A stretch of DNA of 64,000 nucleotides, taken from assembly GCA_044892525.1 (NCBI GenBank), contig CM097886.1, positions 16,616,001 to 16,680,000 on the forward strand. The letters run 5' to 3'. Below the pieces are notes generated by a model. It worked only from the letters and a program-made list of their open reading frames with translations. It was not told the DNA's origin and searched no databases. The position numbers and the translations under genes are program-made. The DNA comes from Schmidtea polychroa. Lineage: Eukaryota. Shown in pieces: positions 16,601 to 64,000 of this stretch (its first letter is position 1; each line of letters starts with the position of its first letter).

Positions 16601-17928
16601 CCGAAGACGTGGTGGAACAGGCGATATCTATAACGACAATGAAACTGCCAATATCAATTATAAACCATGAAATCGTCCCCGATAGCCGAAATGTGACAAA
16701 TTTCTCTCTGAAACTCGAACCCCAAGACGATCCGATGTGTGGTGGTTCCAGTAACGCCGGGGAGGTAAAGCTGACCCCTGTGTACATTGTTGGAACCGCC
16801 TATGTTGTTGACGAAGAGCAAGAACCCACCCAAGGATGCCTGTATGTATTTCATTATAACGAGCGAACTGGAGAGTTCACAGTCGTGCGAACATTCAAAA
16901 CGACCGGAGTTGCTTATGACATGCAAGAATTCGATGGAAAACTTCTATCAACATTCAACAGCTCTGTTCAATTGTTGGATCTCACGAAAGATGATCTCCA
17001 CATCATATGCCGCTATGACGACAACATCATCGCTCTGTATCTCAAACGGAAGGATGATTTCATTTTGATTGGAGATCTGATGAGATCGGTTACATTGCTT
17101 AGATACAAACCGAATGTCGCGCATTTCGAAGTGGTAAGGCTAATATATTATCAATATCCATTTAGAATAGATGATATATTGTTTCAAATTCCTAGATCGC
17201 CCAGCACAGAGCACCCCATTGGACAACTGCAATCGAGATTATTGACGATGACAAATTTCTTGTGGCTGAAAATGAAATGAATATTTTCATTGTGAGTCGC
17301 GATTTTGATTTAACGCCAACCGGGGAAGGTGTAAGAAATGATTTGTCAAATATGAAGGAGGAACGATTTCGAATGTCTGAATATGCGTCAATTCATGTCG
17401 GACAGGTGATCAATAAATTCATGGCAGGTAATCACGGAAATTGGTATCAATAATCATTTTGATCGTTGCTTAGGTAACATTCTCATGCAACCGTTGCTCG
17501 ATGAGTACCGAATCAAGCTGAAAAATTCTATTCTTTATGGATCGACCACCGGCACGATTGGACAAGTGTTTGAGATTAACCAAACTCTTTATACATTTCT
17601 AAAATCTGTGGAAAGCCAAATGCAAAACATTCTCGTTCCGATCGGCAATTTTCAGCACGAAACTTGGAGGAGTTACGTGAAAATCAGACAGTGTCGGGTT
17701 GCCGAGCGATTTATTGATGGGGATTTGGTAGAGAATTTCCAAAATTTAGATATGAAAGATAAAATGAAAATAGTTCAAGATATACGCATTCCGGTAGTTG
17801 ATTAATTAGGATTTTTTATTAAATTTTTTGTTATTTAGGTCGATTTTTCTAATGAGGTTGTTGGTTTCAAGGAATGTAGTGTAGAGGATTTAACAAGAAT
17901 TATCGAAGAGTTATCACGTTTTCATTAA
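10629..17928 (+). CDS. DDB1: DNA damage-binding protein 1 (CUL4 adaptor), 13 exons
   Basis: Exons 10629-10689, 10732-10880, 10928-11299, 11353-11568, 11619-12169, 13253-13555, 13598-13917, 14871-15093, 15147-15397, 16502-17133, 17196-17427, 17474-17793 and 17839-17928 splice in frame with GT-AG introns. Motifs MSCFYHVTSQK, YLLGDMMGRL, YLDNGVVFIGSTLGDSQL, IQKLHVRSVPLNESPR, DFILIGDLMRS, FIDGDLVE and EELSRFH* match DDB1. Confidence 0.95.
14200..14273. mobile_element. 74-bp piggyBac-like miniature element in a DDB1 intron
   Basis: Perfect 12-bp TIR ccgtttgcggac/gtccgcaaacgg with TTAA on both flanks. Confidence 0.6.
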
Positions 17929-32438: not shown

Positions 32439-35138
32439 AATAATATTGTTGGGTTTTATGATATCAAAATCAACCGTTGTGTTGGGCTGAATCGAAGGGT
32501 ATCCAAGAAATTAGGTTAAACATAATTAAATTAAAATAAAAATAAAACAAAAACAAATTTAAGAATAAAATAGAATAGGATATAAGAAAAATAATAAATT
32601 AGAAAATAAGAGTTAAAACAAAAAATATAAAAATAAGGAAAATTGAAATAGGACAATAGAATGACAAAAAATAACGTAAAATGTAGTAAATAATAAAGAA
32701 ATTAAGGAAAATAAATAAAAAACACAATAAAACTAAAGAAAATAGGAAAAAATAACTCAAAAACAAGAAAAATAAATTAAAGCAATAAAATTAAGCGGCA
32801 CTCAATTCTGATTGGTCCGCACACATCAAAAATTAATATATAAGGAAACACAAAAATTATAAACTTACAGTTAAACAACCAACTTTACAGGTAAGATAAA
32901 TTTTAACAGTGACAGTTAAACAACCAACTTTACAGGTAAATAGCAGCAACGCACGAGAATCAATCTAGATACCAGGAGATATTATCAAACAGTTAACAAT
33001 CGACGTAAATTCCGAGTAACCATTTATTCGATTCGATACCTTCCGACTCAGCCTATAAATCTATACGAATTACTTGGTAAGAAATTTTTCGATTTATACT
33101 TTTATCTAAGTAATAGTAGTCATGTAATTTTATGAAATAATTATAAATTTAAACTGAAAATAGTTTCCTTTTCGTTTGATTCCTAATGATAAATTTGCTA
33201 ATTAGATGATTTAGTTAATTAATAAAATGAATTATTATGAACTTTTTATGATTGATTTTCATGCATTATTATTTAATGATTATAACTTTTCGAGAAACGT
33301 GGCGTTGAGATACTCTAGTGTCATGGTGTGAGGTGCCTTCGGGAGCTCCACCGGTGGGCCTAGGGTATTTCAATCACGCAGCTGATTCGGGCCGTAATGT
33401 GGGGGCTTCCTCACGGGTCCGTCGCTGAAGATGCGACTAAAATATGTGAACAATACTGTAGAGATGGTAACTATCAAGCAATGGGAAGTGTAGTCATATG
33501 AGAAAAATCTTGTTCGAGAGTTCGCGCAGTGATTGAGGGCGTCATACTATTGTCTTTATCAAATTGAAATTGGTACTATCATCTAAAGATCTATACAGGA
33601 TTTTCCGTTAAATCAGTCTGGACACCAGTTATAGCATATTATCTGCGTTCATGATTCCACTCGAAATTATTCCCGAAACCTTCAGCCTAAGGATCTTCCC
33701 AACTGCTACTTTCATCATCTATATCCATCACGTACAATCAACTTTGCTGCGTCTCTCTAAAAACCTACTTGTGGTAAATTGTGACAAACAAATAGTTCTC
33801 AAAAATAATAAACCATAAAATAATAACGAATCTAGTCAGGAAAAATGTATTTATAAAAACAATCAAACATGTCGTTCCCTTGTATATCGAATACCAAACG
33901 TTTGTGGCAACTGATGCAAAGTTAGGATGGGAGGTAACTGATCCGATAGACCCTCCATGGGCATAAAATCCGAGTCTTAGAGATGTCACAGAGGGTGATG
34001 GAATAGCCGCATTTCGTCGAATTATATTTTCCAGCGATAGTTAATGAATTTCCAACTCGATATAGACAGTGGGCATGTTGATGGTGATAAAATCCATGAG
34101 GGGAGTAGAAATTATAGCTTGAGTAGTTGACCAGTTTGTCTACGAAACAAATTCCATCTAGTAATAGCGGCACGCAAAATCTGCCTATGCAAAATTTCCA
34201 CGAGAGATAGAAATTCAACACGGCGTAATACAGCATCTGATAATTCATGCAAGCTGCCAAATAAGATAAGAGTCTCACGAAGTGAGTACCCGCACACATG
34301 TGTAAATGCACACATTGCAAGTTCTAATCGCCAAAGTCCACATGCTGGTGCTCACCAATAATAACACGCATATCACTAGCCATAATTCTATGAGTCTATC
34401 TTCCAGGTGATACGTTCCTTGAGATCGCATAGTCATCTAACCCGATAGTAGATAATTCACCGCGAACGGCTAACATGAGAAAAATCCACCGGGTGTGTCA
34501 GATGAAAATCTCGGCTATTTACCGAAAGCACTAGACATGAGTGATGATAACACGAGTCACCAACAACTCAATAATTAATTTTAAATTAGTAAATAAATGT
34601 GTGATTTGAAAATAAAATTATAATAAATTATAGGCAATATAATCGAAAGCCTAAACAAAATACAAACAAAATGCAACTCAATTAATCCAAGTCTATTACT
34701 GGAACTGCAAAAATTTAATGTTTTTACTTAATGATGAATTAAAACCAACTTATCTAATTATCTATAAAATCATTATAAGGATTAGCTAAATTTTCACTTA
34801 GTAATTATTTGGTTCGGGTTGAATTTCCAATGCTATTTACCCTCTTCAAGAAAATTTCCGTCATCAATAATTCCTCTTAAACATGTAATTTTCATTTTCT
34901 TTAGTAATGATGTGCAACCTTCGTTAAGTAAAGCCTAATGTTGTCAGTTGAATTTCTAGTGGATAAACACCCAGAGTGCGCATAGGTTGATGGCATAGGA
35001 AATCCCTCTTGATAAATAATCCGTTTATCTTTTCCTGTAAAAATGTCTAATATTGATTAACGCATGGTGGCGAAAAATGATGATTTTCTAAATTTGATCT
35101 ATCCCATTTAGTGTTATTATTCTTCTTAGCTAGTAGAC

Positions 35139-35888
35139 ATGTTACCCACTGCAAAAACCGTCCTCAGACCCTGTTTTTCTTGTTCCGACAAGAATTCAAT
35201 CATCAAGGATCTGCAGGCCCAAATCGGAAAGTACAAAAAGAAGATGGACGAGTTAGAGAGGACATGGTTTAGTCCCGCCCAGATGAAAGAGACCCAAAGG
35301 AAATTACACCGAAGCGAACATTGCCGGGACGCTCTAATCTCCGAGAGTCGTGCCCAAAGGAGTTTGATCAAGGAGCAGTCCGAGGCGCTGCATAAAGTGT
35401 ACATCCAGGCCGCGGCAACTAGAAAGATAGTGAAAATTCCCATCGGTGAAGCCGACAATCTCTTTCCGGCCCACCATGATACTTCTGCCAAATCACCGCT
35501 CCCTTCGAAAAAACCTTGCCGGCCGTGCGTAGAAACACAACTCTCGCCAGAGCAACTAGAGGTGGCTTTTGTTGGAAATAGTCGGGTACTGCCTAACGTC
35601 GCCTCTACATCGGCGGTAGCCCCAAACAATTCATCGACCAACAAGCCAAAGCGTCGGCAGCTATCAAGGGCTGAACGCAAAAGGAAACAGCGTGAGCGAA
35701 TAGCTGCGAAGCAGCCCAAGCAACTGCCGGACCTCGGGAGTAATGTCAATAACGTCCCTGCTATGATTGACCTAACAACAAGCACACTAGGGCGGATCAT
35801 ATCAGCCGCTGGGGTGACGTGGGATGAAAACGCCTCCGAATTCTTCGATTTGGACGAGTTGCTCGCCGACTCCGAGTGGGAAAAATGA
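35139..35888 (+). CDS. Intronless 249-aa hypothetical ORF in a GC-rich island, probably a mobile-element accessory gene
   Basis: Open ORF with CxxC, a coiled-coil stretch, a basic NLS-like segment (KPKRRQLSRAERKRKQRER) and an acidic C-terminus. Much more GC-rich than the flanks. No recognised family. Confidence 0.45.
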   Translation: MLPTAKTVLRPCFSCSDKNSIIKDLQAQIGKYKKKMDELERTWFSPAQMKETQRKLHRSEHCRDALISESRAQRSLIKEQSEALHKVYIQAAATRKIVKIPIGEADNLFPAHHDTSAKSPLPSKKPCRPCVETQLSPEQLEVAFVGNSRVLPNVASTSAVAPNNSSTNKPKRRQLSRAERKRKQRERIAAKQPKQLPDLGSNVNNVPAMIDLTTSTLGRIISAAGVTWDENASEFFDLDELLADSEWEK

Positions 35889-43084: not shown

Positions 43085-43380
43085 CCAACGGAAACATTAT
43101 TTTCCGACTCCCAAATCTAGATAGACGATCCAGTTGCAGCACATAGCCAATATATGTTTGACGAGAAGATAAATTTATTAATAATCTCACATATTTCTAA
43201 AGCGCATAAATGTCTTCCTTCAGATGAGTTCGATAACATTAAAGTTCCGTCCCATGATCCAGACAATGCAAATTGACCATCATTTGACATAACAACATCA
43301 CTTTCAAAGTCATCCCAAATAATCATAGATTTATCCCTTGATGAAGAAATAAAACTGTTTGGATAGATGTTAGTTGCAAT
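43085..43380 (-). pseudogene. RACK1: RACK1 fragments with internal deletions, intronless
   Basis: IATNIYPNSFISSSRDKSMIIW, SDVVMSNDGQFALSGSWDGTL and [36 protein letters not shown] match RACK1 WD1, WD2 and WD5/6. Confidence 0.88.
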
Positions 43381-43690
43381 CTTTGATTTTGAAGCAGCCA
43401 TAATCACACGACTATTCATTTTCATTGTTTCTGGTATCCATGAAATAAACGCCAAAGTACCCTGATAGTCATATAATGCATAGCAAACTTCTTTAGCATA
43501 TGTTTCGATCATGTGTAATCTGAATCTTTCATAAAGAGTACCTAATTCCCCAGTTTCTAATTGAATAGTTCTATCCTTCCCTATCCTTCTGTTTGTTGAG
43601 TCCAAAGATTACATATTGAAGTATGTGTTGTAATTTAATTTAATTAAGATATCCTTTAACTGAAGGATCACATTTAACACCTGAAGCCAT
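43381..43690 (-). pseudogene. ADF/cofilin processed fragment, from start codon, C-terminus missing
   Basis: MASGVKCDPSVKGYLN*IKLQH...YVIFGL then TIQLETGELG..YERF...CYALYDYQGTLAFISWIPETMKMNSRVIMAASK (ADF-H domain). Confidence 0.8.
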
Positions 43691-48880: not shown

Positions 48881-50692
48881 ATGTAAATGCTCTATTTGTT
48901 CCAATATTTAATTTGTTTTTAATTTTTGAAAAACATGACTTTTTAGACAAATAATAATTAAAACTGATTTAGATGAACAACATCAAAAGTTATCACATGT
49001 TATTATATATTTAATACAAATTTGTTTCATAACTTAGTGCAAATAGCAGATTCGTACTAAACAGGACAGATTTATGTACCAACCTAATAAATACCATTAA
49101 AAATAATAAAATCGCATTGTCCAACAATGATATCAAACGACTATGAGTGGGAAAAAACACTAGTCTCGCATTTGGACATTATTTAGGAATCGATGATAAT
49201 GACTCGAATCGCAATGAAAGATGACAATGATAAAAACAGAGTTATATTTAAAAAATATTTTACAAAAAACAAAAATGTCTTTGTTATACATTGTTATTCA
49301 CTGTCTCGTCTTGTGTTAAAGCATACGATTTCAATTCTATAATATAATATTTCAAAGTTGTTCTATTATGGCGTCACTTATATTTTAATTTAAAAACTTA
49401 GGAGCTCATTTTCATGGAAACTAAGCATTTGTTGTATATACACACCATATATTTATGTGACCTACATAAAATTCTGGGTCGACCTAGATATTTTCTAGAA
49501 AAGGGAAATAATAATAATAATAATAAAAGGAAATTTTTTTTATCAAATTGAACTCCTCATAAACATTTCCTGATTTTTTGATTTTGTTTTCACTCAAGAA
49601 AAAAATTAACGAAGAAAATTTCATTGTTTGTTTGAAAGTGACAAAATTATTTTTTTGTAAAGAATTTCATTTATAATATCACAAATTTCTGACATCGGCG
49701 TCTTATATTTGACCAAATTTTTTTATTGTTTTTTCATATCAAGATTTGATCCAGGGATCAGGGAGGTTCTTAGTTTATTGGTGTTTACTTCTTGAAACCA
49801 TGCTCAAGATGACTAAAGCAATTAGTAATTATAATCTTAATTCCCTCTTTTTCTTCATTTTTTTGAGTGCTTCAAAACTAAAATCTTACTCTTTCAATTA
49901 AATGCTCCTTTAGCTTACCTTATCATTCTCATTAACTCTATATATAAAATCGCAAATCCAGTGAGACCAATATGACCAAATAAAAGAGGTAAAACTGAAA
50001 AATTCCTATTTAGTGTAGGTGCATCCGATATCAGCATCGATCGGCGGCGTCCTTCTAAAACAAAGTCCGTCAAAATCAATAATCTCCAAGAATTAATCCG
50101 AAAATCTACCAATACCAATCGATAATCTGCTGCCTGTGGAATCGAAAATCCAATTGTAAAATATACGAAAATTTTGTCGGTTTTTGTCTGATTTGTGAAA
50201 ACTTTTGGGATTATTGAAATTTCTATCTATCGATTATGGGAGAATAATCAATTTTCTGTTGCAATTTCTCGGCAGAATTGAATATTTCATGAACTGACAA
50301 CTTGAGTGGCGCGCTCAAAATCAATTAATAAATAATCGGTCGATTAAACCCCATTAAAATATTTTTAAATCGATTTTTTTAAAATTAATGTCAATAAAAT
50401 TAATACAATTGCTAAATATTTCTTTTTTATTGTTTTGAATTTTGGCTGATTTTTTTTTGACTAGTTTTGTTTGAATAAATGATTTCCATTTTTTTTTCAA
50501 CAAAAATCAGTAAATTAAAACCTTTGCAGATATATTATTAAATCGGTAAAGTGATTTTTTTTATAATAATTTTATGAGAATATTGTGTATAAATATTAAT
50601 AATTAGGAAATAATTATAGCTTTTGTTTGATTGATTTGATACGATTTCTGTATTTTGATACGATAAAGAGATTTCTTTATGACAGATTCTTT

Positions 50693-51753
50693 TAAAATAA
50701 ATATTTACAATAAATAATTACGTTTCCCTCATTTCATTGTGCGTAGTATGAAAACAATTATTTATTTATTTTATTTTAATTATTTGTTTCTTTGCATTTA
50801 TTTTATTTATTTTATTTTTATTAAGTTATAAAATACAAAACCAATATTCATATCCTCTTTCTATAAATGTCACTTAATATAGATTATTTCATACGAAATA
50901 TAAATTAATAGTAATATTGCACATTCCGATGGATATTTGCGGAATAGATATCATCAAAAAAATAGATTGTTTGTTTTAAAAAGAACCTTTATTGAACTTT
51001 TCTAAGAAGATCCAGACTTATAATATCTCTCCAACTTGATCTTTATCCAATAAGCTTAGAAATTCTAATAATATTTTGATGATCATTCAGTAACCATATA
51101 AACCTTTATAAACTTCAGTATTAGACACAAGTCAAAAGTTCTAAAAGATTGAGGATAAACATTCTTGAGCATTAAATCATTCATTTGGGTTTGAAATGAA
51201 TTTCTTTGCCTTGGTTTAAATCCAATTTTCCAATGAAACAAAAAATATAGCATATTTTAATAAATCTATTCTTCTAAAATAAATATTTACAATAAATAAT
51301 TAAGTTTCCCTCATTTCATTGTGCGTAGTATGAAAACAATTATTTATTTTATTTTAATTATTTGTTTCTTTGCATTTATTTTATTTATTTTATTTTTATT
51401 AAATTATAAAATACAAAACCAATATTCATATCCTCTTTCTATAAATGTCACTTAATATAGATTATTTCATACGAAATATAAATTAATAGTAATATTGCAC
51501 ATTCCGATGAATATTTGCGGAATAGATATCATCAAAAAAATAGATTGTTTGTTTTAGAAAGAACGTTTATTGACCATTTCAGTAGCCATATGAACCTTCA
51601 GTATTAGACACAAGTCAAAAATTCTAAAAGATTGAGGATAAACATTTTTGAGCATTAAATCATTCATTTGGGTTTGAAATGAATTTCTTCGCCCGAGTTT
51701 GAATCCAATTTTCCAATGAAACAAAATATATAGAATATTTTAATAAATCTATT
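50693..51753. repeat. Tandem duplication (about 578 bp plus about 479 bp copy with internal deletion)
   Basis: 50693-51270 and 51275-51753 are near-identical; copy 2 lacks about 100 bp. Confidence 0.85.
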
Positions 51754-52839
51754 TTTGTTTTATTTTAATAGATTTTTGAGGTGCTTTGACGAAGTGAAAA
51801 TGGAGGAGAAAATGAATTACAATTAAATCTTGCATCAATAATGAAAATTATCCATTAACAAATTTCTCTCCTAAATCGCGAGCTGCATTGACGACTTCTA
51901 ATAAGGCTTATAGCCGAATATCATCATTATTAACATGCCTAATAATAACAGCAAAATTATGACTTGCATTTCGAAAATATTTTCAATTTTTACATTTATA
52001 TTTCACTAGAGAGATTTTATTTTATTTAAATATTTTGTTTTAATTCACTGGTTTATTGAAAATATTCAAATTGCAAATTTGTCGTCAAAACTGACAGGAA
52101 AACTTTAATTAAAATGTCTTTTCGCTGTCTTGGAAATTGAATCTGAATTAATGGGTTTAGATTTCCTTNNNNNNNNNNNNNNNNNNNNNNNNNNNNNNNN
52201 NNNNNNNNNNNNNNNNNNNNNNNNNNNNNNNNNNNNNNNNNNNNNNNNNNNNNNNNNNNNNNNNNNNNNNNNNNNNNNNNNNNNNNNNNNNNNNNNNNNN
52301 NNNNNNNNNNNNNNNNNNNNNNNNNNNNNNNNNNNNNNNNNNNNNNNNNNNNNNNNNNNNNNNNNNNNNNNNNNNNNNNNNNNNNNNNCCAAAGCTCTAA
52401 AATCCTGGAGTGGTTTAATAATTATTGTTAACAAATCTGGTTGAATGAAAAATAATGAGAGCGGTTTGATGTGAAAAGATATAAAATTATCATAAAATTT
52501 TTATTGAATTATCTCGATCAGAATTTGAAAATTTTATCAAAATTGGTCCTAATTAGAAAATGCGCTTCAAAAATTAAACACAATTTCGTTTTTTTTTCGT
52601 TAGAAACTTTGTTTAAATTGATGCAATATAATAAATAAATATTTGTTTTTATCACTAACTTTTATTATATTGATTTGTTATGATGATTAACATTTATTTG
52701 AATGAGATCTTGGGGAAATTATTTGTGAAATTTTCAATAATTTTTAAAATATTTTAAATTACACAATAATATTAAAACTACTTATTATTATTTTTTAAGT
52801 ATAAATTTAGTATTCATCATTCTTGTCCTCTTTAGTAAT

Positions 52840-54170: not shown

Positions 54171-56873
54171 TTTCTGAGATGGTTATCCAAAATTTATTTT
54201 TTTTACTTAAATTTTATTTTATTGCCCATTTAACTTACTTACCCAAGATTCACAATGACCTACGGGTTTGCTTAAAATAGTCAATTAATTAACTAATTTA
54301 TTTGTTTTTTGGTTCTTGGCTTTTCTAGGGAACTATTTTATTTTATTTTATTTCATTAATTTTATTTCCCACCGGTTACCACTTTTTTTACCGAAAAATA
54401 TTGATTTTTACTTTCAAATTTTATATAACCATTTTAATTGATTTTAAAAAATTGTAATTTTCTATTTTATTTTACATATTTTAATTTAACGCCAGCAATT
54501 TTTAAAAAATATAAATCTCTAAATAAATATAAACAAAAGCACGATATCGTTTCAGTCTATCATCTTTAGGCTCTGAAAGTCCACAATATCGGTTATGCAA
54601 GTTGCAAGAAATTGTTTTCAGCGAAACTGAAGTGATAGCTTCTATCTTCATCATCGTCATTAATTTCCCCTCGCAGAAATTTTATTATAGGTCTGCTGGC
54701 ATGATTTTGCGTAAACAATATCTTAGGCGTATTAACTACCCATTGCGGGTTTTTACAATAAACAGCATAAGAATAAGGTCATCCACAATTCAATTGATTC
54801 ACTGAATAAATCTCAGGATTCAAAGTTTTTAGCAACTATTCTCTACTTTTTTGTCTTGACATATCTGCCTTCGACAATAAGTTATCTTTTAACCGATCAT
54901 TGTGAATACAATCGAACAATATGTTTCTTTGAAATTTAACAATTAAGAATTTCATCTAACAGCTCTTTTACTCTAAAGTAGAAACGATTGGGGGTTGCTG
55001 CAGAAATTAGTTTTTGCTCAAACGGTTACGTACCTGCTGCAGAGTGCTACACTTATTTTTTCTGGGATTTTCAATACAAAAAAGGTCCTATAGAAAAAAA
55101 GCCAGGATTTTTCTGACTATAGGGGGGGGGTCTCCATTGATCCTAAGAATTTCAAAATAAATTTCATTTCTCGCTAAAAAAGCATGAAATTTTCTAAGTA
55201 TAATTTAGGTGGGCCTCCTTGGTCCTGGGGTTTTTACATGAGGTAATTCAAGGATTTTATCAACTATAGATTTCTGTAACGTCAATATACCGATAAATGA
55301 GCTTCTTGTACTTTATTAAAGATACCCAGTTTTTTTAATCTTTCTATAGAATCTTAAGATCTCCCATCAGCTATAAATCACAAATTACAATAAGGCCTAA
55401 ATCACAGCCATTTTTCTGCTTCAAAGTTAGATTATCGAACGTTAAAATTTAAAATTAATTATTTTCGCTGCTTTTTTGTAATTGAATTGTTAGATTCGCT
55501 TTTACCATGGTCAAAATATTTAATTTTATAATTTTATGCCTAATTAAATTTTGTCTATCCTCGTCTTCCTTTCTCTGATGGATTGATACAATCCCAAGTA
55601 ACGTCCAATAATGTTACTCGTTACAGGCATTTTACACAGTTGAGGTATTTCTAACGCCTAGTGATTTTATTTTTTAAATTATGTTTCCATATATCTGAAT
55701 TGTCATCGACAACTTGTTTCGCTAACTTAAATAACATTATAAATCCTAAATTACATATTACAAACAACGATAAATATTAACAAATCATTTAATACCCTAC
55801 TTGGTCAATCCTGAGTTGGATTGACGCGTCTGTGATCATTTTGTTTCTGAATTTGGATTTCTTTTATGTACGCGCACAGATGCGAATAAGGAATGATGAA
55901 TCTTTGAGTATATTGAATTTTAATTGTCGATTCTTTGAGTTGTCGGAATTTGCTTTTGAATTTTCTGGTTATTATCGATTTTTGGATGTGATTGTTCGAA
56001 GTTTGGTTTAAAAAGGTGAATTTTTTGATTTGCATTTTTTGTAAATAAAGTTTTTCGAGATTCTATTGTGTTTTTACAAAAATTAAAAAGCGACTTGCAA
56101 CTTATAAAAAAAATGATGACTAAACGAAATTTGGATTATGAAGATTTTAACGATTGGAAAAGATCAAAGATTATTGAACATTATGATGTTTCTTGTAAGA
56201 ATGGATCTAATGGAGCTGAACTTTATGATGCATTACCTAAAAACATAATCGAAGTTCTAACTCACGATGGGAATGATAGAGTGGAGTTTGTGATGACAAT
56301 TAAACACTATTATATATTTGAAAATGACTAATTGACTATTATATTTAAAAGTATAGATAAACTAAAGGTTATTTCGTGAATATTATTATATTTTAGATGT
56401 ATATTACAAAATATATATGTAAGAATTGGAGAATATGTATTATAAAAAATATAAATATTAATGTTACATTTATGTCCTGTTCTGTATATTAGAAATAAAT
56501 GAGTGCGCGACCTTTTTATAATTTTTAAATTAAAAACCTCAAAAATGAATGATTCATACAAATGTTCATCTACTGAAAGCACAGGAAAAATGTTTTGAAA
56601 AAAAAGGGCCCAAAATCATAACTCTAGTATCCATTGACTGCATGTTCTGTGATATGACGGTGAGAAGGAATATCAACACCAGCTTTACGATATTTATCGT
56701 TCGTAATGTCCATTCAATATATTGGTGAAGCATTTCTTTGATCCCAAAATTGTTCAAACTGCAGAGTTTTGAGCACATTTTTATTGATTAAAAGATGTAA
56801 ATGTTTGAAAGAAAGAAGATATATTAGAATATTAAAACAATGTATTTTAATTTAATTAATTTAATAATGTATT

Positions 56874-57167
56874 AGTAGTGAGAATACACCCCCACTCACC
56901 CCCGACCACCCTACAAAAAGCACCTTATTTGCCCCATTAACACACAAAAAACAGCCATAAAAGCATAAAAAACGCTATTTTGGAAAAAAAAGAAAATCTA
57001 AAAAAGAACGAATATTGGGCTAAAAAAAAGGAAAAAAATTAAAAAAAAAGGATTATAAAGCAATAAATAAAAAATAAAATTATAAAGATGTTATAAGTGG
57101 AAGATGTCTTCATAATATTTAAAAAGTAAAAAAGGTCGGGGGTGAGTGGGGGTGTATTCTCACTACT
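56874..57167. repeat. 294-bp unit bounded by a perfect 34-bp inverted repeat with Polinton-like termini
   Basis: agtagtgagaatacacccccactcacccccgacc (56874-56907) and its exact reverse complement (57134-57167). Confidence 0.9.
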
Positions 57168-57247
57168 CTATGGCAGTATAATAATAAAAATAAAGCCGAA
57201 ATAATCGAAAATCGAAAATCGAAAATCGAATTTTTCACTATAAAAAA

Positions 57248-58534
57248 ATGAATTTTAAAATTCAAGAAAGAAATAAATTGAATCTTGATTACAATAAGGA
57301 ATTCACCCATGAGATTAAAAAGAATGATGTTTTAAAAATCTCTCCAACTTCAGGCTCAATAGCAAATTTAAATCGATCAGGAGACATAGTTTTTCAAAGC
57401 CTTCAAACTTCAAACCCTATAGATATTTGTAATGCAAAATTATATTACAAGATTGAACTAGAAATTGATGCCGATAAAAATATAACCCTTGAAAATAATT
57501 TCTTTCCAAACTTATTCAGCAACATGAGATTAAAACTAGGATCATCAGAAATTGAAAGCATATTATATCCGGGAGTATATTCTACAATGTTAAATTTTAT
57601 TTTAACAAGCTCTGATTATAAAAATGAATATGGAGAATTAACCGCATGGATTCCTGATACAAACAAAGGGGATGTAGACAAAGACGGCATGGATGCAAAC
57701 AATGGCTATTATAAAAGAGTTAAACTTTACAAGCTGAAAAAGTTCGAAGGTTATTTTGAATTAAAACATTTATTTGGATTCCTTCAAAACTATAATCGAG
57801 TACTTCATAATGTTTTTATAGAATTCATCTGTAATAGGGTAGAGGATGATAAAAGATTATTCTTTGGGGATAGGGATACAACGGCTAAATTAAAACTATC
57901 AACGCTTGAACTCCATATACCTGAATGGACCTTAAACCCACATTCTGAAATCCGACTGCTTGAAAGATTAAATTCCAACAGAAGTATAAACGTAAATTAT
58001 TTAAATAGAATCTGTAGTGAATTCAGCATGACCGAGGGATCAACATACTCTATAAAGGTTGCAAATCTTGCATACCGCCCAAGATATATCTTAATCGGCT
58101 TCAAAGAAATAGATTCATCATTTCAAAAAAACAACAATCTATTTATTCAAAAGATTGCTGCCGATAATTTAAAAACAATTCAAATCCAACTGAATAATTC
58201 TTATTACCCTATAAATCGAATGGAGTTTAATATTGAAAATAATGAAAACATATTCCCATACTTGAATTATATTGAAACATGTAAAGAATTCAAGGTGGAG
58301 CCACAATTAAACCTAGATGATTTTAAAAATCTATATTCCATATTTTGCATAAATGTATCAGACCAGGATGATCGCCTAGCCATAAACAATGTGGACGTCA
58401 CTCTACACATAACAAAGGATTCCAACTTTAAATCCAAGGTTTATACATTAATATTAGAAGAAAAGAAAATAGAAATGAAGTTGTATGCCGGAAAGATTTC
58501 AATCATAGAAAATGTCAGAGGAGAAGGCTCATAG
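57248..58534 (+). CDS. Double jelly-roll major capsid protein (Polinton PY / hexon-like)
   Basis: 428 aa. NLNRSGDIVF, TLENNFFPNLFSNMRLKLGSSEIESILYPG, KHLFGF, KLSTLELHIPE, RPRYILIGF and IQLNNSYYP resemble Polinton MCP motifs; context supports the call. Confidence 0.82.
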   Translation: MNFKIQERNKLNLDYNKEFTHEIKKNDVLKISPTSGSIANLNRSGDIVFQSLQTSNPIDICNAKLYYKIELEIDADKNITLENNFFPNLFSNMRLKLGSSEIESILYPGVYSTMLNFILTSSDYKNEYGELTAWIPDTNKGDVDKDGMDANNGYYKRVKLYKLKKFEGYFELKHLFGFLQNYNRVLHNVFIEFICNRVEDDKRLFFGDRDTTAKLKLSTLELHIPEWTLNPHSEIRLLERLNSNRSINVNYLNRICSEFSMTEGSTYSIKVANLAYRPRYILIGFKEIDSSFQKNNNLFIQKIAADNLKTIQIQLNNSYYPINRMEFNIENNENIFPYLNYIETCKEFKVEPQLNLDDFKNLYSIFCINVSDQDDRLAINNVDVTLHITKDSNFKSKVYTLILEEKKIEMKLYAGKISIIENVRGEGS

Positions 58535-58580
58535 TATAATATCCATAGTATAATATCCATAGTATAATATCCATACTAAA

Positions 58581-59450
58581 ATGGAATCCTGGTATTGCGA
58601 AAGCTGTAGATCTCAAGTTAGAAAAAAACACAAAGCCCGCCATCTTAAAACTAAAAAGCATATGGAACAGCCTTCGGAACACCCTTCGGAAGGAGGCGAT
58701 CTTCAAAGTTCAAGGTCTACACTTAGAATCCTCAAACCTTTTACAACTGAAAAGTATCCGGGTGAAAGACATTTATTCCGCCATAACTATACTGGCCCAG
58801 GAACTCGATTGGATATTCGCCTTGATGAAAATAATAATCCTAAGCCCGGAGAAGAACCAATAAACAGAGTTGATGCCTCTGCACTTTCTCATGACATAGC
58901 CTATAACTCTGAAAACCTTAGAGATCGACATCTTGCGGATATAAATCTGATCCACGATTTAAATGCCATAGAAAATCCAAGCACGGGAGAAAAGATCCAA
59001 AGAGCCCTAGTTAAATTAGCCATGAAGGCCAAGATCTTTGTTGGCGGAGAAGTAGAAGCACCTCGTTCTGCTCTTCTAGGCCTTATTCATATGCCTTGTA
59101 AATCTATAGAAGGAAATAAAATAATTCTAGTGCTTATTGATCTGGAGTCCCGAGATGTATTTCTTAAGGCTATAAAAAATAAAGACTCTACACAGCTGCT
59201 CGAAGGTCTTGAGGGCCTATTCGAATCAAATCAAATAATCCCAAGTTATCTGCACACAGATGAAAACATAGAATTCCCGGATCTTGTAATAAAACCTATA
59301 GGTTGTGTAGACAGGAAAATTATTAAGGAAGAAATAAAAAAAATAAAAAATATTTTTTGGAATCACTTTAGTTCTAAAAGAAATCAAATATGGTCCTCAT
59401 CGTTTATATCAGAGCCTATACCAGAGTCTACATCACTCTCTATAACATAG
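58581..59450 (+). CDS. Zn-finger + parvovirus-type phospholipase A2 + degenerate rve-integrase-like domain fusion
   Basis: WYCESC...RHLKTKKH (C2H2-like); HNYTGPG and DASALSHDIAY (PLA2); C-terminal GNKIILVLIDLESR..LKAIKNK...IPSYLHTDENIEF...IKNIFWNHF (INT-like). Confidence 0.75.
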   Translation: MESWYCESCRSQVRKKHKARHLKTKKHMEQPSEHPSEGGDLQSSRSTLRILKPFTTEKYPGERHLFRHNYTGPGTRLDIRLDENNNPKPGEEPINRVDASALSHDIAYNSENLRDRHLADINLIHDLNAIENPSTGEKIQRALVKLAMKAKIFVGGEVEAPRSALLGLIHMPCKSIEGNKIILVLIDLESRDVFLKAIKNKDSTQLLEGLEGLFESNQIIPSYLHTDENIEFPDLVIKPIGCVDRKIIKEEIKKIKNIFWNHFSSKRNQIWSSSFISEPIPESTSLSIT

Positions 59451-59556
59451 TCCCCTTGGACATAGTCCCCTTGAACAGAAGCAGAGTCTATAATAAAGTG
59501 TGCATACAAACTAGAGCCATCAAAAATTTCAGTTCTCATTTTTATGGATTATAATT

Positions 59557-60360
59557 TTACTGCACTAGGTTTGTGTACACAGCCGAATTATCCCGATCTA
59601 GAAATATATAGCTATGTTTTTTATTCCAATGATGATCCATGTCCATGTCAAACCTAACCTTATCAGGCATCACTGTTGAAAATAAGTCTGTGTAAATCAA
59701 TGCCCTATCTCTTTTATCCAATTTAAAAAAGATAAAGCAATTAGCATTATTCCTTATGGAGTGCTTATCCAAAGCATAATAGGTTTGTGAAATATAAATC
59801 GTATTGCAATTACTATGGCGACCTCTTAAAAAATATGTCTTTTGAATATTTTGATTTTTCATATTGACAACATCATCAAATACAACCAGATGCTTCTTAT
59901 TCTTGGGAAGATCGTCACAGTACATAATATCCTCAGGTCTATTTGAAAATAAAACATCAATCTTTCCCTCTGAAGAATCTTCACAGAGGCCCTTCCTTGT
60001 TCCACGCTCCTCTGCTTCTGCAATCCACCAATCAATAATATCCTGAGGGCTTTGAACTTCTGCAGGCACTTGGTCTTGATTTTTAAAAATATCAATCAGT
60101 GTTTTTTTACTTAGATTATTCTCAAAGCCATATTTTAAAAGCTGAAGTTCCGGCTGCCCTATGGTCGTGGAATAAATGATTAAGTTATTATAGTCCAGGA
60201 ATCCTTGCTCAAGCAGCATTTTTAAAAGAAGAACGTTCTTTCCACAGCCCGAAGGTCCTATAATCAACAATCTAAAGCTACTGGGGAATATTTTATGATT
60301 AAAAATAACCTTATTCCGAGTTAAGATGGGTTCCCAGGATTTAGAATTTTCTCTATTCAT
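59557..60360 (-). CDS. A32/FtsK-HerA-type genome packaging ATPase
   Basis: RLLIIGPSGCGK (Walker A), LVVFDD (Walker B), RGRHSNCNTIYISQ (Arg finger/sensor) and IRNNAN. Confidence 0.9.
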   Translation of the reverse strand: MNRENSKSWEPILTRNKVIFNHKIFPSSFRLLIIGPSGCGKNVLLLKMLLEQGFLDYNNLIIYSTTIGQPELQLLKYGFENNLSKKTLIDIFKNQDQVPAEVQSPQDIIDWWIAEAEERGTRKGLCEDSSEGKIDVLFSNRPEDIMYCDDLPKNKKHLVVFDDVVNMKNQNIQKTYFLRGRHSNCNTIYISQTYYALDKHSIRNNANCFIFFKLDKRDRALIYTDLFSTVMPDKVRFDMDMDHHWNKKHSYIFLDRDNSAVYTNLVQ

Positions 60361-60375
60361 TTTTTAATCTTAAAA

Positions 60376-60906
60376 ATGGTCGACACTGAGGAATATTTAG
60401 AAGAATTAATAAAATCGAATAAAAGCAAATCTGTGGTCATCGATGGCAAGAAGTATTTTATTGGAAAGCAAGTAAGGCAAAGAGTAGAAGAAGAAAAGAG
60501 GAAAGGAGGCTTTCTACCCCTGGCAGCCTTAATACCTGCAATCATCGCGGGCCTAACCACAGTCTCCGGGGCAGCCGCAGGAGTTGCAAAGACCGTGAGC
60601 AATGCAAGAGAGGCAAGAAACAAAGACCTTGAAAAACAAAAACTAGAACTTGAGATTGCAAACCTAAAGAAGAGCGATAGTGGGACGGCAGTAGGCAAAG
60701 AGGGCACTGCTCAGGGCACTGCGTTATACCTCGATCCCTATAAAGGCCGAGGGCTAAATGATTTTTTAAAAAATCAAATTTTACAGTCCGTGGAGCTATC
60801 TTCAAAGGATAAAGAGCGTCTAAGAAGAATGTCTAAAAATTTAAAGAACGGATGTCTTTGTGAAATAACAGGTGAAGGTTTATATTTAAAACCTTGGAAT
60901 TTATAA
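60376..60906 (+). CDS. Adenovirus pX-like internal/core protein
   Basis: KGGFLPLAALIPAIIAGL..SGAAAGVA resembles the adenovirus pX hydrophobic segment; LYLDPYKGRGL and GEGLYLKP are Gly-rich motifs. Confidence 0.55.
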   Translation: MVDTEEYLEELIKSNKSKSVVIDGKKYFIGKQVRQRVEEEKRKGGFLPLAALIPAIIAGLTTVSGAAAGVAKTVSNAREARNKDLEKQKLELEIANLKKSDSGTAVGKEGTAQGTALYLDPYKGRGLNDFLKNQILQSVELSSKDKERLRRMSKNLKNGCLCEITGEGLYLKPWNL

Positions 60907-60913
60907 TATAAAA

Positions 60914-61828
60914 ATGGTACTCGAAGAAAGATTAGAGCTTTTAAAAAAATTACATAGTGAACAGGATAAATATAATAAAAAAACCATAAATCTAAACACC
61001 GAGTCCTTGGTCTTGCATGATGAGTTAAGCAAGCAACAAGAACCGACTATTAAAGCCATAGAAAAAATGCATGCCAAGTATTATGATGAAGAGGATCCTA
61101 GCCTCGGGGATAACACCCTCGGACTTGAAGGTCTAGAGCCTTTTATATTTAATCCTGAAATTAATAAAAGAGGCTTAAGTGTTACAACAACTCCAACATT
61201 TAGACATAATCCAAATAATGGATTTCAAATACTAACACTTAATAATCATAACTTTATACTATACGCCCAGAATGCTATGGCATATCTCAGATCTCAGAAT
61301 GTTTATAGCCATCAATATATAACCTTTGAATTTACATATAATTTTTCAGAATTACTTTGTGGGCGCATACCAGTGGAGACTACACTTGATGAATGCGAGA
61401 GTTATATGAGGTTAATAGAGGTCGTACAAGCATCCCACATTGCCCCACATATTACGAATCTAAGAAAATTTATAAACCTTAAATTTTATGAGAACAGAAG
61501 TCTAATAGAAAATTTAAGCGATAAAGAATTAACCGATAGATATACCCAGAAGGTTTTGGAGAACCTCTCAACCTCTGCTATTGAGGCAGTTCGTTCTGGA
61601 ACGAAGCCCGAAGAAGAAGAAGAAGAAGAAACTACCCCTGAAACACACAGTGAGTTCTTCGGTGAAGGCATAAGGAATAGTATAAATTTTTTTATTGAGT
61701 TAAGAAAACTTTTATCTGCAAGGAAAGCAGGACATAATAATTTAGATTCTGATATTTTAAAGATCTCAAAGGAATTATTATCCAGAGCTTTGCTTTCAAA
61801 GCAAAAGTATAAGAAGTACAAGAATTAA
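60914..61828 (+). CDS. Conserved Polinton-type hypothetical protein
   Basis: 304-aa open ORF. LSKQQEPTIKAI at the N-terminus and GEG...LRKLLSARKAGHNN...ISKELL at the C-terminus recall a recurrent Polinton ORF. Confidence 0.55.
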   Translation: MVLEERLELLKKLHSEQDKYNKKTINLNTESLVLHDELSKQQEPTIKAIEKMHAKYYDEEDPSLGDNTLGLEGLEPFIFNPEINKRGLSVTTTPTFRHNPNNGFQILTLNNHNFILYAQNAMAYLRSQNVYSHQYITFEFTYNFSELLCGRIPVETTLDECESYMRLIEVVQASHIAPHITNLRKFINLKFYENRSLIENLSDKELTDRYTQKVLENLSTSAIEAVRSGTKPEEEEEEETTPETHSEFFGEGIRNSINFFIELRKLLSARKAGHNNLDSDILKISKELLSRALLSKQKYKKYKN

Positions 61829-61839
61829 CACTATAATAA

Positions 61840-62259
61840 ATGAATCCCAGTATCCTAGATTTCTTGAAAACCTTTGGAATAAAATCAAAAACAAACTTTG
61901 ACCTAAAGGATCATGCAAGGCTGTTAAATCTAGATCTTAAAATACTAATGAATGATGAGCTTGAGGGAACTAAAAAATCAAACATAATAATAAACTATCA
62001 AAACTCGGATAAAAAAGGCTCACACTGGGTCTGCCTTAGGGATAGAAGATTTTATTTTGATTCATATGGCATTAAGCCCACAAAGGAAGTCGAGCAGTAT
62101 ATGCTTCCAGATTATATTTTTAATTCTCTACAGCTCCAACCTTGGAACACTGAAATATGTGGAGTTCTATGCCTATATGTTCTCTACTGCTTGAATCAAG
62201 GCCATGGGTTTAAATCCGTGATAGATGAAATCCATAGGGGTTTAAAATCTATGTTATAA
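61840..62259 (+). CDS. Adenain/Ulp1-like cysteine maturation protease
   Basis: GSHWVC (His), YFDSYG (Asp) and QLQ...ICGVLC (Gln, Cys). Confidence 0.88.
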   Translation: MNPSILDFLKTFGIKSKTNFDLKDHARLLNLDLKILMNDELEGTKKSNIIINYQNSDKKGSHWVCLRDRRFYFDSYGIKPTKEVEQYMLPDYIFNSLQLQPWNTEICGVLCLYVLYCLNQGHGFKSVIDEIHRGLKSML

Positions 62260-62262
62260 GAA

Positions 62263-62949
62263 ATGGCGGATAAATATTCTAGAACTTTATTAATAAATTC
62301 AAATGAATCAGATTTTAGTATAAACTTTGAAGACAGCATTATTTTAGAACAGGATTTAAGTTATGAACTAGGACTCCTGTGGTTTTCATGCTTTAATACC
62401 ATTTTTAATATAAGCAATAAGAATAATAAATTTAAGATCGCGGGAGTTCCTTGTTCCATAGAGCCAGGAGCCTATGAACTAATTGATTTAGGAAAAGCAA
62501 TTTTAAAGCAAACAAATAATAATCTTGAAATAAAAGCAGATCTTCAAACTTCAAAATGTATTCTAACTTTAAAAAAGAATATTAAACTTGAATTCTCAGA
62601 GTCTAGTTTCTTTCATAGTATTTTTGGCTTCGAAGTCAAAGAATATATAGGAGAAAGCTTTAGATCTAAAAATATTATTCAAATTACAAATACAAATTCC
62701 ATAAACATTGAATGTGACTGCATTATGGGTTCTTACAATAATGGCAAGCATTCCAAGATCCTATATTCCTTTCCTTCTAACACCGTTAGGGTTGGATATA
62801 AAATAATCGAAAGAATGAATCCTCCAAACTATTTACCCATATGCAGGAAGAACCTGATGAGCATTCATTTTAGAATTGTGGATGAAGATGGAAATCTAAT
62901 AAACTTTAATGGTGAAAAGATTACAATGTATTTACACCTGAAGCATTAG
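62263..62949 (+). CDS. Minor capsid (penton-like, single jelly-roll) protein
   Basis: IEPGAYEL, INIECDCIMGSYNNG..SKILYSF, GYKIIE and IHFRIVDEDGNLINFNGEKI..LHL match the Polinton mCP pattern; follows the protease gene. Confidence 0.8.
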   Translation: MADKYSRTLLINSNESDFSINFEDSIILEQDLSYELGLLWFSCFNTIFNISNKNNKFKIAGVPCSIEPGAYELIDLGKAILKQTNNNLEIKADLQTSKCILTLKKNIKLEFSESSFFHSIFGFEVKEYIGESFRSKNIIQITNTNSINIECDCIMGSYNNGKHSKILYSFPSNTVRVGYKIIERMNPPNYLPICRKNLMSIHFRIVDEDGNLINFNGEKITMYLHLKH

Positions 62950-62998
62950 GAGAGAAGCCTCTTTTTCTGGAGAGAAGCCTCTTTTTCTAGATAAATAA

Positions 62999-63931
62999 AT
63001 GGCTTGTAATAAATTTGGTTTATACAATGATGGTTTAAAAGATGAAGATGTTATAATGCTTACAGAAAAAAGATTTGTTAATGAGAGGGGTGACAGCATG
63101 AAAGGAGATTTATTTTTAAATAGTCACAAGATAAAAGAATTAGGCCCTCCAACCGATAATCTTGACGCTGTTAATAAAGCATACCTCGAGAGCTATGTGA
63201 ATTACTATGTGCATTCCTATATGCGGCCCCTTCTGCGTTCCTATACACTTACATTTCTGAGTGACTATATGCCTGAGTATGTGACCTCCTATATGAATTC
63301 CTATATGCCTATGCATATAAACCGTCCTATCGATAATTTGGCTACAAGGCTTTTAAATTTAGAAACCCGTTGTTGTTGCATTGATACTTCTCAGGCCTGG
63401 AGGGTTAGAGCAGCGGAACTGAAAGAAAATAAATTGCTATCAGTAATGGAGTACAAACATTTTTTAAAGGTAGATTCTTTAATTGTCGAAGGTAAAGATT
63501 GGTCGTGTTATATGGTTGTTAAAATCATTGACCCTTATTTCTATTTATTCATAGATGGTTCTAACACCATGACATGGTTTGCAAAATCTGTGTATAATAC
63601 TAAATTAAAAAAAGGAGATGTTATAGTTACTGATTACAATCATTCTAAAGGTCTCTGGCATAATGGCATTAATACTGGACGCCCTTACAAAGTATTAAAT
63701 ACAACTATTGCTCTTGCAAAGACACAAGTAGAATACATTGATATAATATATTATAATAAAAACATTAATCAAGACACATATTATACACTATGCAATTTAT
63801 ATAGAGATGTATTAACAAAAGTAACTGAGTATGACATGCGAGTAATATTACACAGCCATGATTCTCCTAAACATTCAATGATATTATCCCAATTTAGAGA
63901 CTCTAAAAATCTGAAGCCTCTAAAACTCTAG
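62999..63931 (+). CDS. Putative fibre/receptor-binding protein
   Basis: N-terminal NKFG and a GDSMKGDLFLNSHKIKELGPP..NLDAVNKAY fibre-shaft-like repeat, followed by a beta-rich C-terminal domain; located next to the penton gene. Confidence 0.5.
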   Translation: MACNKFGLYNDGLKDEDVIMLTEKRFVNERGDSMKGDLFLNSHKIKELGPPTDNLDAVNKAYLESYVNYYVHSYMRPLLRSYTLTFLSDYMPEYVTSYMNSYMPMHINRPIDNLATRLLNLETRCCCIDTSQAWRVRAAELKENKLLSVMEYKHFLKVDSLIVEGKDWSCYMVVKIIDPYFYLFIDGSNTMTWFAKSVYNTKLKKGDVIVTDYNHSKGLWHNGINTGRPYKVLNTTIALAKTQVEYIDIIYYNKNINQDTYYTLCNLYRDVLTKVTEYDMRVILHSHDSPKHSMILSQFRDSKNLKPLKL

Positions 63932-64000
63932 GGGAGGGGGAGAAAGGGGGAAGGGGGAGAAATATCATTTTTATCGCCTAATAAATGGGGGATCAAAAAG

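What the first reader, a model, noticed from the sequence alone, without database searches (positions are those of the whole stretch)
57248..63931. Complete, undecayed virion-morphogenesis module of an endogenous Polinton-like virus
Seen: eight consecutive open ORFs with 3-106 bp spacers, contrasting with decayed elements across the rest of the window. Known: MCP, penton, A32 ATPase and adenain are the full adintovirus/Polinton capsid toolkit; PLA2 and pX-like proteins are entry and core factors. The MCP is the first gene after the terminus, and polB and a canonical integrase are not in the window. Inference: a recent, possibly virion-competent insertion of an undescribed lineage.
Basis: partly seen in the sequence, partly recalled or inferred. 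Interest (0 to 1): 0.75.

Follow-up and report, generated by a model that had tools for sequence, protein, structure and literature searches.

The report
Integrase-dead Polinton borrowing a relative's integrase
This is one of nine copies of a virus-like jumping element (a Polinton) that keeps its capsid genes but carries only a crippled integrase fused to a phospholipase, yet sits in cleanly cut insertion sites, so it likely borrows the integrase of its far more numerous intact relatives in the same genome.

Summary
The eight open ORFs are real: major capsid protein, PLA2 fusion, A32 ATPase, pX-like protein, an unknown ORF, adenain-like protease, penton and a fibre-like protein. They form the left half of a 14,477-bp Polinton with AGTAGT ends and a 6-bp target-site duplication, joined to host DNA.

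Intact modules are not rare here: 97 of 98 scored capsid matches in the genome have no stop. This copy is not autonomous. Its polB has an in-frame stop, and its integrase is ORF2, a zinc finger–PLA2–integrase fusion lacking catalytic residues and both flanking domains.

Nine copies share this dead integrase and form one clade. Five have clean, different 6-bp duplications, and both the remnant and the capsid genes are under purifying selection. An abundant sister family carries the same fusion with a full DDE triad and similar ends, and likely integrates the dead clade in trans.

The fusion is common in public proteins, but ten paper searches found neither it nor the dead form. The scan noted other Polinton families in this genome, not this one. 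Verdict: new variant of a known kind.

The parts
56868..56873 (.). Left copy of the 6-bp target-site duplication (TGTATT); the right copy follows the right end beyond the window
56874..58125 (.). Left arm of the terminal inverted repeat, 1252 nt. In this copy alone (of 17 compared) it extends over the first 289 MCP codons
   Evidence: 99.0% to the right arm, 3 mismatches, 2 gaps
56874..57167 (.). Terminal 294-nt unit: starts AGTAGT and is closed by a perfect 34-nt inverted copy of the terminus
   Evidence: fold z -8.97
57248..58534 (+). Major capsid protein, double jelly roll, 428 aa
   Evidence: PF21738 E 1.3e-25; dN/dS 0.08-0.10
58581..59450 (+). ORF2, 289 aa: C2H2-type zinc finger, parvovirus-type PLA2 (YTGPG and HDxxY intact), GG motif, then dead integrase core
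59067..59405 (+). Integrase-core remnant inside ORF2: first Asp replaced, Glu position aligns to Lys, N-terminal linker/domain and C-terminal domain absent; frame open in 9 of 9 copies
59557..60360 (-). A32-type packaging ATPase, 267 aa
   Evidence: PF04665 E 3.1e-7; dN/dS 0.14-0.20
60376..60906 (+). Core protein with an adenovirus pX-like stretch after a GG motif, 176 aa
   Evidence: Adeno_PX E 1.3e-3, below cut-off
60914..61828 (+). Conserved 304-aa ORF of unknown family
   Evidence: no informative hit; dN/dS 0.26-0.30
61840..62259 (+). Adenain-like cysteine protease, 139 aa
   Evidence: invariant H/D/C motifs; weak Peptidase_C5 in 2 of 11 copies
62263..62949 (+). Penton / minor capsid protein, 228 aa
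   Evidence: Foldseek to viral minor capsid proteins; Atlas score 0.98 to clusters with viral members
62999..63931 (+). 310-aa protein with an N-terminal tail-fibre-like motif; likely a fibre
   Evidence: phrog_2710 E 6.8e-5
63985..64000 (+). Start of a 182-aa conserved ORF (L001 985-1533). The element runs on beyond the window in L001 (L001 position 1 = window 63001): 116-aa and 184-aa ORFs (L001 1721-2629, -), protein-primed polB split by one in-frame stop (L001 2654-6991, -), right terminal repeat with an inverted partial MCP copy (L001 7090-8350), then TGTATT

Best explanation
This is an integrated copy of an integrase-defective Polinton lineage that keeps its capsid, protease and ATPase genes under selection and is likely inserted by an intact integrase supplied in trans, most likely that of the abundant sister family in the same genome. 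Shown: element boundaries, 6-bp duplication, dead integrase shared by nine copies, purifying selection, intact fusion in the sister family, gene-by-gene mosaicism between the families. Inferred: in the parent family the integrase is made as a zinc finger-PLA2-integrase precursor, packaged in the particle and released by the adenain-like protease at the GG/GxG site after PLA2. The dead lineage replicates in cells where sister elements are also active, and its AGTAGTG ends are bound by their integrase. This particular copy also has an interrupted polymerase frame, so it would need help for both replication and integration.
For: (1) All 9 copies found in the genome lack the same N-terminal and C-terminal integrase parts. 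Subgroup A (4 copies) lacks the first Asp. Subgroup A2 (5 copies) lacks the WxD motif of the second Asp. By contrast, 119 of 120 public PLA2-integrase relatives and 4 of 4 aligned sister copies keep DDE. (2) The nine cores lie on one side of a 100/100 branch, and their PLA2 domains form a clade (88/83) nested with the sister family (91/91), so the loss most likely happened once. (3) Five of the nine have perfect, different 6-bp duplications. Two near-identical A2 copies (dS 0-0.03) sit at different sites with different duplications, so insertion followed the loss. (4) Structural genes have dN/dS 0.08-0.44. (5) All groups end in AGTAGTG. (6) Gene trees disagree between A, A2 and sister subfamilies, as expected if they replicate together. 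(7) A GG/GxG motif follows PLA2 in 101 of 112 public fusions versus 4 of 621 control windows.
Against: Four of nine copies give no clean duplication: one lies in a microsatellite, one lost its outer end, one lost its MCP side, and one has mismatching ends. The helper is not identified; other Polinton families with their own polB exist in the genome (earlier scan notes, untested here). Alignment around the catalytic Glu is ambiguous: MAFFT keeps Glu with a one-residue gap, HHalign gives Lys. One A2 copy has an Asp near the second position in one alignment. The integrase-core tree joins long branches. Only 28 of 112 border motifs fit a hydrophobic-x-GG/-x-GxG pattern, and 17 the strict adenovirus pattern (pattern recalled). 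No particle, transcript or protein evidence was obtained.
Confidence: 0.7

Rival explanations
1. Cassette replacement: intact elements integrated first and made the duplications; dead-integrase cassettes later recombined into them.
For: Strong mosaicism between A, A2 and sister subfamilies in MCP, polB, penton and protease trees.
Against: Terminal sequences are specific to A and A2 copies, not sister-type, and match between the two ends of each copy. Two A2 copies at different sites share the same terminal 40 nt. Replacement would have to convert both ends each time.
Confidence: 0.12
2. The remnant is still involved in integration, as a partly active enzyme or as a non-catalytic subunit that the helper integrase needs, rather than being a passive leftover.
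For: The frame is open in 9 of 9 copies at dS 0.55-0.96 between A and A2. A neutral simulation leaves it stop-free in 1-2% of runs per branch of 0.3-0.4. Four independent pairs pooled give 52/262 synonymous versus 88/1025 non-synonymous differences, p 1e-6.
Against: A and A2 lost different aspartate motifs and both flanking domains. dN/dS is 0.17-0.67 against 0.08-0.12 for intact sister cores, which fits a relaxed structural role equally well.
Confidence: 0.1
3. One reading: a recent, autonomous, virion-competent insertion whose integrase lies downstream.
For: All morphogenesis ORFs are open and under purifying selection; duplication and termini are intact.
Against: There is no other integrase ORF between the termini. 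ORF2's integrase is dead. polB has an in-frame stop in the assembly, read the same way in the contig of run X1, although contigs of X3 and X4 read it otherwise.
Confidence: 0.04
4. Ordinary decay after insertion: each copy integrated with a working integrase that then degenerated.
For: Several copies are broken in other genes.
Against: The same deletions occur at nine unlinked sites, the cores form a single clade, and the remnant shows purifying selection without stops.
Confidence: 0.04

Closest known systems
Polintons/Mavericks (Polintoviricetes), group 2 / PLA2-bearing type
   Same: 13-25 kb size, terminal inverted repeats, (AGT)2 ends, 6-bp duplication, pPolB, MCP, penton, ATPase, protease (PMC8097293 and 10.1101/2023.08.22.554363, passages read). 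Phospholipase is called common in group 2 (10.64898/2026.06.19.733378, passages read).
   Different: The integrase is fused behind PLA2, and in this lineage it is catalytically dead yet conserved; this copy's polB is interrupted.
Alpha (Mayetiola-class) adintoviruses, Starrett et al. (PMC8502044; section 3.1 and passages read)
   Same: Hexon, penton, adenain, packaging ATPase, PLA2 and pX-like sequence; exchange of modules between lineages.
   Different: There PLA2 carries a C-terminal pX (PLA2X), and the integrase has a C-terminal chromodomain per PMC11071296 (passages). Here pX is a separate ORF, PLA2 is joined to the integrase, and no chromodomain was found in the local intact fusion.
Sf Maverick 1 and 2 (PMC5803895, passages read)
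   Same: A parvovirus-type PLA2 with catalytic residues kept in an integrated Maverick.
   Different: PLA2 (CAP) and integrase-chromodomain are separate ORFs.
Butterfly Polintons with gene-containing TIRs (10.1101/2025.02.07.637071, passages read)
   Same: Terminal repeats that extend over hexon, giving a second copy.
   Different: There about 2 kb with hexon and adenain; here 1.26 kb with two thirds of MCP, in one copy only.
Defective retroviruses and non-autonomous transposons complemented in trans (recalled; complementation also mentioned in a PMC8097293 passage)
   Same: Keep cis ends and rely on a relative's enzyme.
   Different: Those usually lose coding capacity; here only integration is outsourced while capsid genes stay under selection and polymerase genes are kept.

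Membership tests
Autonomous Polinton/Maverick | Terminal inverted repeats with AGTAGT ends | tested here: met
Autonomous Polinton/Maverick | 6-bp target-site duplication | tested here: met
   TGTATT both sides; empty-site form in 8 of 9 host-repeat copies
Autonomous Polinton/Maverick | Protein-primed polB gene, uninterrupted | tested here: not met
   Gene present (PF03175) but split by one in-frame stop in this copy; sibling copies vary
Autonomous Polinton/Maverick | Retroviral-type integrase with DDE triad | tested here: not met
   Remnant only in 9 of 9 copies; met in 4 of 4 sister copies aligned
Autonomous Polinton/Maverick | Double jelly-roll major capsid protein | tested here: met
   PF21738 E 1.3e-25
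Autonomous Polinton/Maverick | Single jelly-roll penton | tested here: met
   Foldseek E about 1e-6 to minor capsid proteins, from a low-confidence model
Autonomous Polinton/Maverick | A32-type packaging ATPase | tested here: met
   PF04665 above cut-off
Autonomous Polinton/Maverick | Adenovirus-like maturation protease | tested here: inconclusive
   Motifs invariant; Peptidase_C5 weak in 2 of 11; no PDB sequence hit
Alpha adintovirus | PLA2X gene (PLA2 with C-terminal pX) | tested here: not met
   PLA2 fused to integrase; pX-like sequence in a separate ORF
Alpha adintovirus | Integrase with C-terminal chromodomain | tested here: not met
   No PF00385 in local fusions; present in 5 of 120 listed public relatives
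Alpha adintovirus | N-terminal OTU-like domain on PolB | tested here: inconclusive
   Pfam gives zinc fingers and PF03175 only; no profile-profile test run
Polintovirus (particle-forming) | Virions or nuclease-protected free genomes | not testable with these tools
   Only assembled contigs of public runs were available

The most novel reading that the evidence does not exclude
Animal Polintons of this lineage package their integrase as a protease-cleaved PLA2-integrase precursor. A long-lived cheater lineage keeps a dead integrase core because that core recruits or pairs with the helper's active integrase, so a virus with its own capsid and polymerase outsources only integration.
Probability: 0.25. 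Interest if true: 0.75.

Novelty: new variant of a known kind. Interest (0 to 1): 0.5.

Why it matters
How Polintons move in animals, by particles or inside the cell, is still open. The fusion of an entry enzyme (PLA2) to the integrase, with a protease-like site between them, gives a direct test: integrase fragments should be found in particles. A lineage that keeps inserting with clean 6-bp duplications after losing catalysis would show that Polinton integrase works in trans and that several Polinton genomes are active in one cell. The intact capsid module alone is ordinary.

Tried and rejected
Contamination or misassembly of the insertion: rejected (empty-site form of the host repeat; flanks held without differences by contigs of X1 and X3).

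Expression: no RNA holder listed; this is no evidence either way.

Runs X5 and X6 of a second study cover host flanks and sister-family sequence but have next to no cover over several A-specific bins. No contig joins across the site, so absence in that strain is not shown.

Contig depth over A-specific pieces in X1/X3 (about 25-46) against flanks (7-25) gave no hint of a large free pool, but contig depth is not a copy number.

The junction of the extended right repeat fell in a skipped repeat and was not checked by contigs.

Dead form elsewhere: the remnant alone found no public protein (0 of 150 candidates). Of 24 of the 150 listed profile hits that I aligned, those reaching the core kept DDE or were fragments or unrelated tails.

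The fold of ORF2 was uninformative (pLDDT 39.4). Complex prediction of remnant with intact core: no answer. PDB sequence searches were blank, as was the phage search with the protease. The 304-aa ORF stayed unassigned.

Literature: ten searches showed no description of a PLA2-integrase fusion or of an integrase-dead, capsid-keeping Polinton lineage. I read passages of 11 papers, not whole texts. Repbase entries and supplementary genome maps (notably of PMC8502044) were not seen and may show the fusion.
Full report
Observation. The eight ORFs and their 3-106-bp spacers are as described. Pfam identifies the major capsid protein (E 1.3e-25), a parvovirus-type PLA2 (2.1e-8) with a weak integrase-core hit (0.0015) in ORF2, the A32 ATPase (3.1e-7) and a weak pX-like stretch. 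The 228-aa ORF folds at low confidence (pLDDT 54.7) and matches viral minor capsid proteins. The 139-aa ORF has invariant protease motifs and weak adenain hits in 2 of 11 copies. The 310-aa ORF starts with a tail-fibre-like motif. The 304-aa ORF is unassigned.

The whole element. The window is G000:C2:16616001-16680000 in a 781-Mb genome of 1012 contigs, four of them very large; a planarian host is my recalled guess and was not tested. The 34-nt terminal sequence occurs four times, all in this element, which spans 14,477 bp from window 56874. TGTATT flanks both ends. The element interrupts a host repeat: in 8 of 9 other copies of that repeat the left flank continues into the right flank with the hexamer once. 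It is therefore a real insertion.

The right half. It encodes three or four small ORFs and a protein-primed polB. One in-frame stop splits polB into 315 and 1092 aa. The contig of run X1 reads the break as assembled, while those of X3 and X4 read it otherwise, so a near-identical sibling or allele likely exists. The right terminal repeat of this copy is extended to 1261 nt and carries 289 MCP codons; the two arms differ by 3 mismatches and 2 gaps. None of the other 16 copies compared showed this. Gene-containing repeats have a precedent in butterflies (10.1101/2025.02.07.637071, passages).

Not a lone survivor. Of 98 scored MCP matches, 97 have no stop, and 95 lie at 89-91% identity to the window protein. 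In that sister family ORF2 is a zinc finger-PLA2-integrase fusion of about 460-470 aa where full length (rve E 7e-12) with a full DDE triad. About 96-97 of the 141 further matches have open frames of 455 codons or more (hand count). Five of six sister copies checked have 6-bp duplications. The fusion is widespread: 573 public proteins scored E 1e-10 or better, most of the 120 listed carry both domains, and one is named from a coral. Of these 120, 119 keep DDE and 112 keep the PLA2 HD motif. A GG/GxG motif follows PLA2 in 101 of 112, mostly 50-56 residues after HD, against 4 of 621 control windows. That it is a protease site is inferred from adenovirus biology (recalled); only 17 fit the strict pattern.

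The dead-integrase lineage. Nine loci match the window's remnant far better than the intact cores: four A and five A2 (a second A marker also finds four loci). All lack about 55-70 residues before the core and the whole C-terminal domain. A has Gly at the first Asp. A2 has lost the motif of the second Asp. The Glu aligns to Lys by HHalign, though MAFFT can keep it with a gap. PLA2 catalytic motifs are intact in all nine. The cores group together at 100/100 (long branches), and the PLA2 domains form a clade nested with the sister family. Five copies have perfect, different 6-bp duplications. One lies in a microsatellite, two lost an end, and one has mismatching ends.

Selection. The remnant frame is open in 9 of 9. 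dN/dS is 0.17-0.33 within A and 0.35-0.67 between A and A2 at dS 0.55-0.96, against 0.08-0.12 in intact cores. Four independent pairs pooled give p 1e-6, and a neutral simulation is stop-free in 1-2% of runs at branch lengths of 0.3-0.4. Structural genes have dN/dS 0.08-0.44 (the window copy against three others; polB was not tested). FastTree gene trees are discordant: A joins A2 for the ATPase, pX and the 182-aa ORF, but joins a sister subfamily for polB and penton.

Mechanism. Shown: the loss of integrase catalysis preceded at least five clean insertions and most likely happened once. Established for Polintons: 6-bp duplications with (AGT)2 ends mark their insertions (PMC8097293, passages). 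Inferred: an intact integrase acted in trans, most simply that of the sister family, which shares the AGTAGTG ends and exchanges genes with the dead lineage. Other Polinton families in the genome, noted by earlier scan agents and seen as a distant polB, are alternative helpers. Further inferred: the fusion is a virion precursor cut by the protease, and the remnant keeps a structural or partner-binding role. Confidence in trans integration 0.7; rivals are cassette replacement 0.12, a remnant still acting in integration 0.10, autonomy 0.04 and decay in place 0.04.

Comparison and novelty. It works like a group 2 Polinton/Alpha-type adintovirus, but this copy fails two defining tests (DDE integrase, uninterrupted polB), so I file it as a defective derivative. 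Published PLA2 genes of Polintons are PLA2X or stand-alone (PMC8502044, section 3.1 and passages; PMC5803895, passages). Ten searches and term look-ups in PMC3671162, PMC11131425, PMC11071296, PMC6431247 and three preprints showed neither the fusion nor an integrase-dead lineage. Repbase and supplementary maps were not seen. The scan's index had no note on this ORF or place. Interest 0.5.

Noticed in passing
window 56874-57167 and the ends of 13 other copies (L004-L041): Each terminal repeat opens with a 243-296-nt unit closed by an inverted copy (12-35 nt) of the terminus in 13 of 14 ends tested. The sequence differs between most copies but is uniform within a copy, so each end could fold back into its own duplex origin.
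   Followed up: partly
window about 10900-17810, + strand: Multi-exon DDB1/CPSF-A-type beta-propeller host gene.
   Followed up: no
window 3688-5246, + strand: hAT/SPIN-type transposase split over two frames.
   Followed up: no
window 43117-43608, - strand: Frame with cofilin and WD40 hits, probably a pseudogene patchwork.
   Followed up: no
L023 (G000:C76:1993-11992): Tandem array with a period of about 1.2 kb, each unit holding two Polinton terminal motifs, upstream of a sister copy on a small contig.
   Followed up: no
L011 1181-1735, L013, L015, L029: One sister subfamily carries a separate 181-184-aa ORF resembling the polB C-terminus, where dead-integrase copies have other small ORFs.
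   Followed up: no
L011 6541-9254 and L039 3105-5588: A distant second polB type (about 28-30% identity; endonuclease VII hit in L011) lies next to copies of this family, showing nested or adjacent Polinton families.
   Followed up: no
window 50686-51756: Local duplication with about 480-580-bp spacing, 84-98% alike.
   Followed up: no
window 35130-35888 and L001 8650-8990: Similar unclassified open frames (shared KRRQLSRAERK-like stretch) occur in the window and just beyond the element's right end, probably one repeat family.
   Followed up: no
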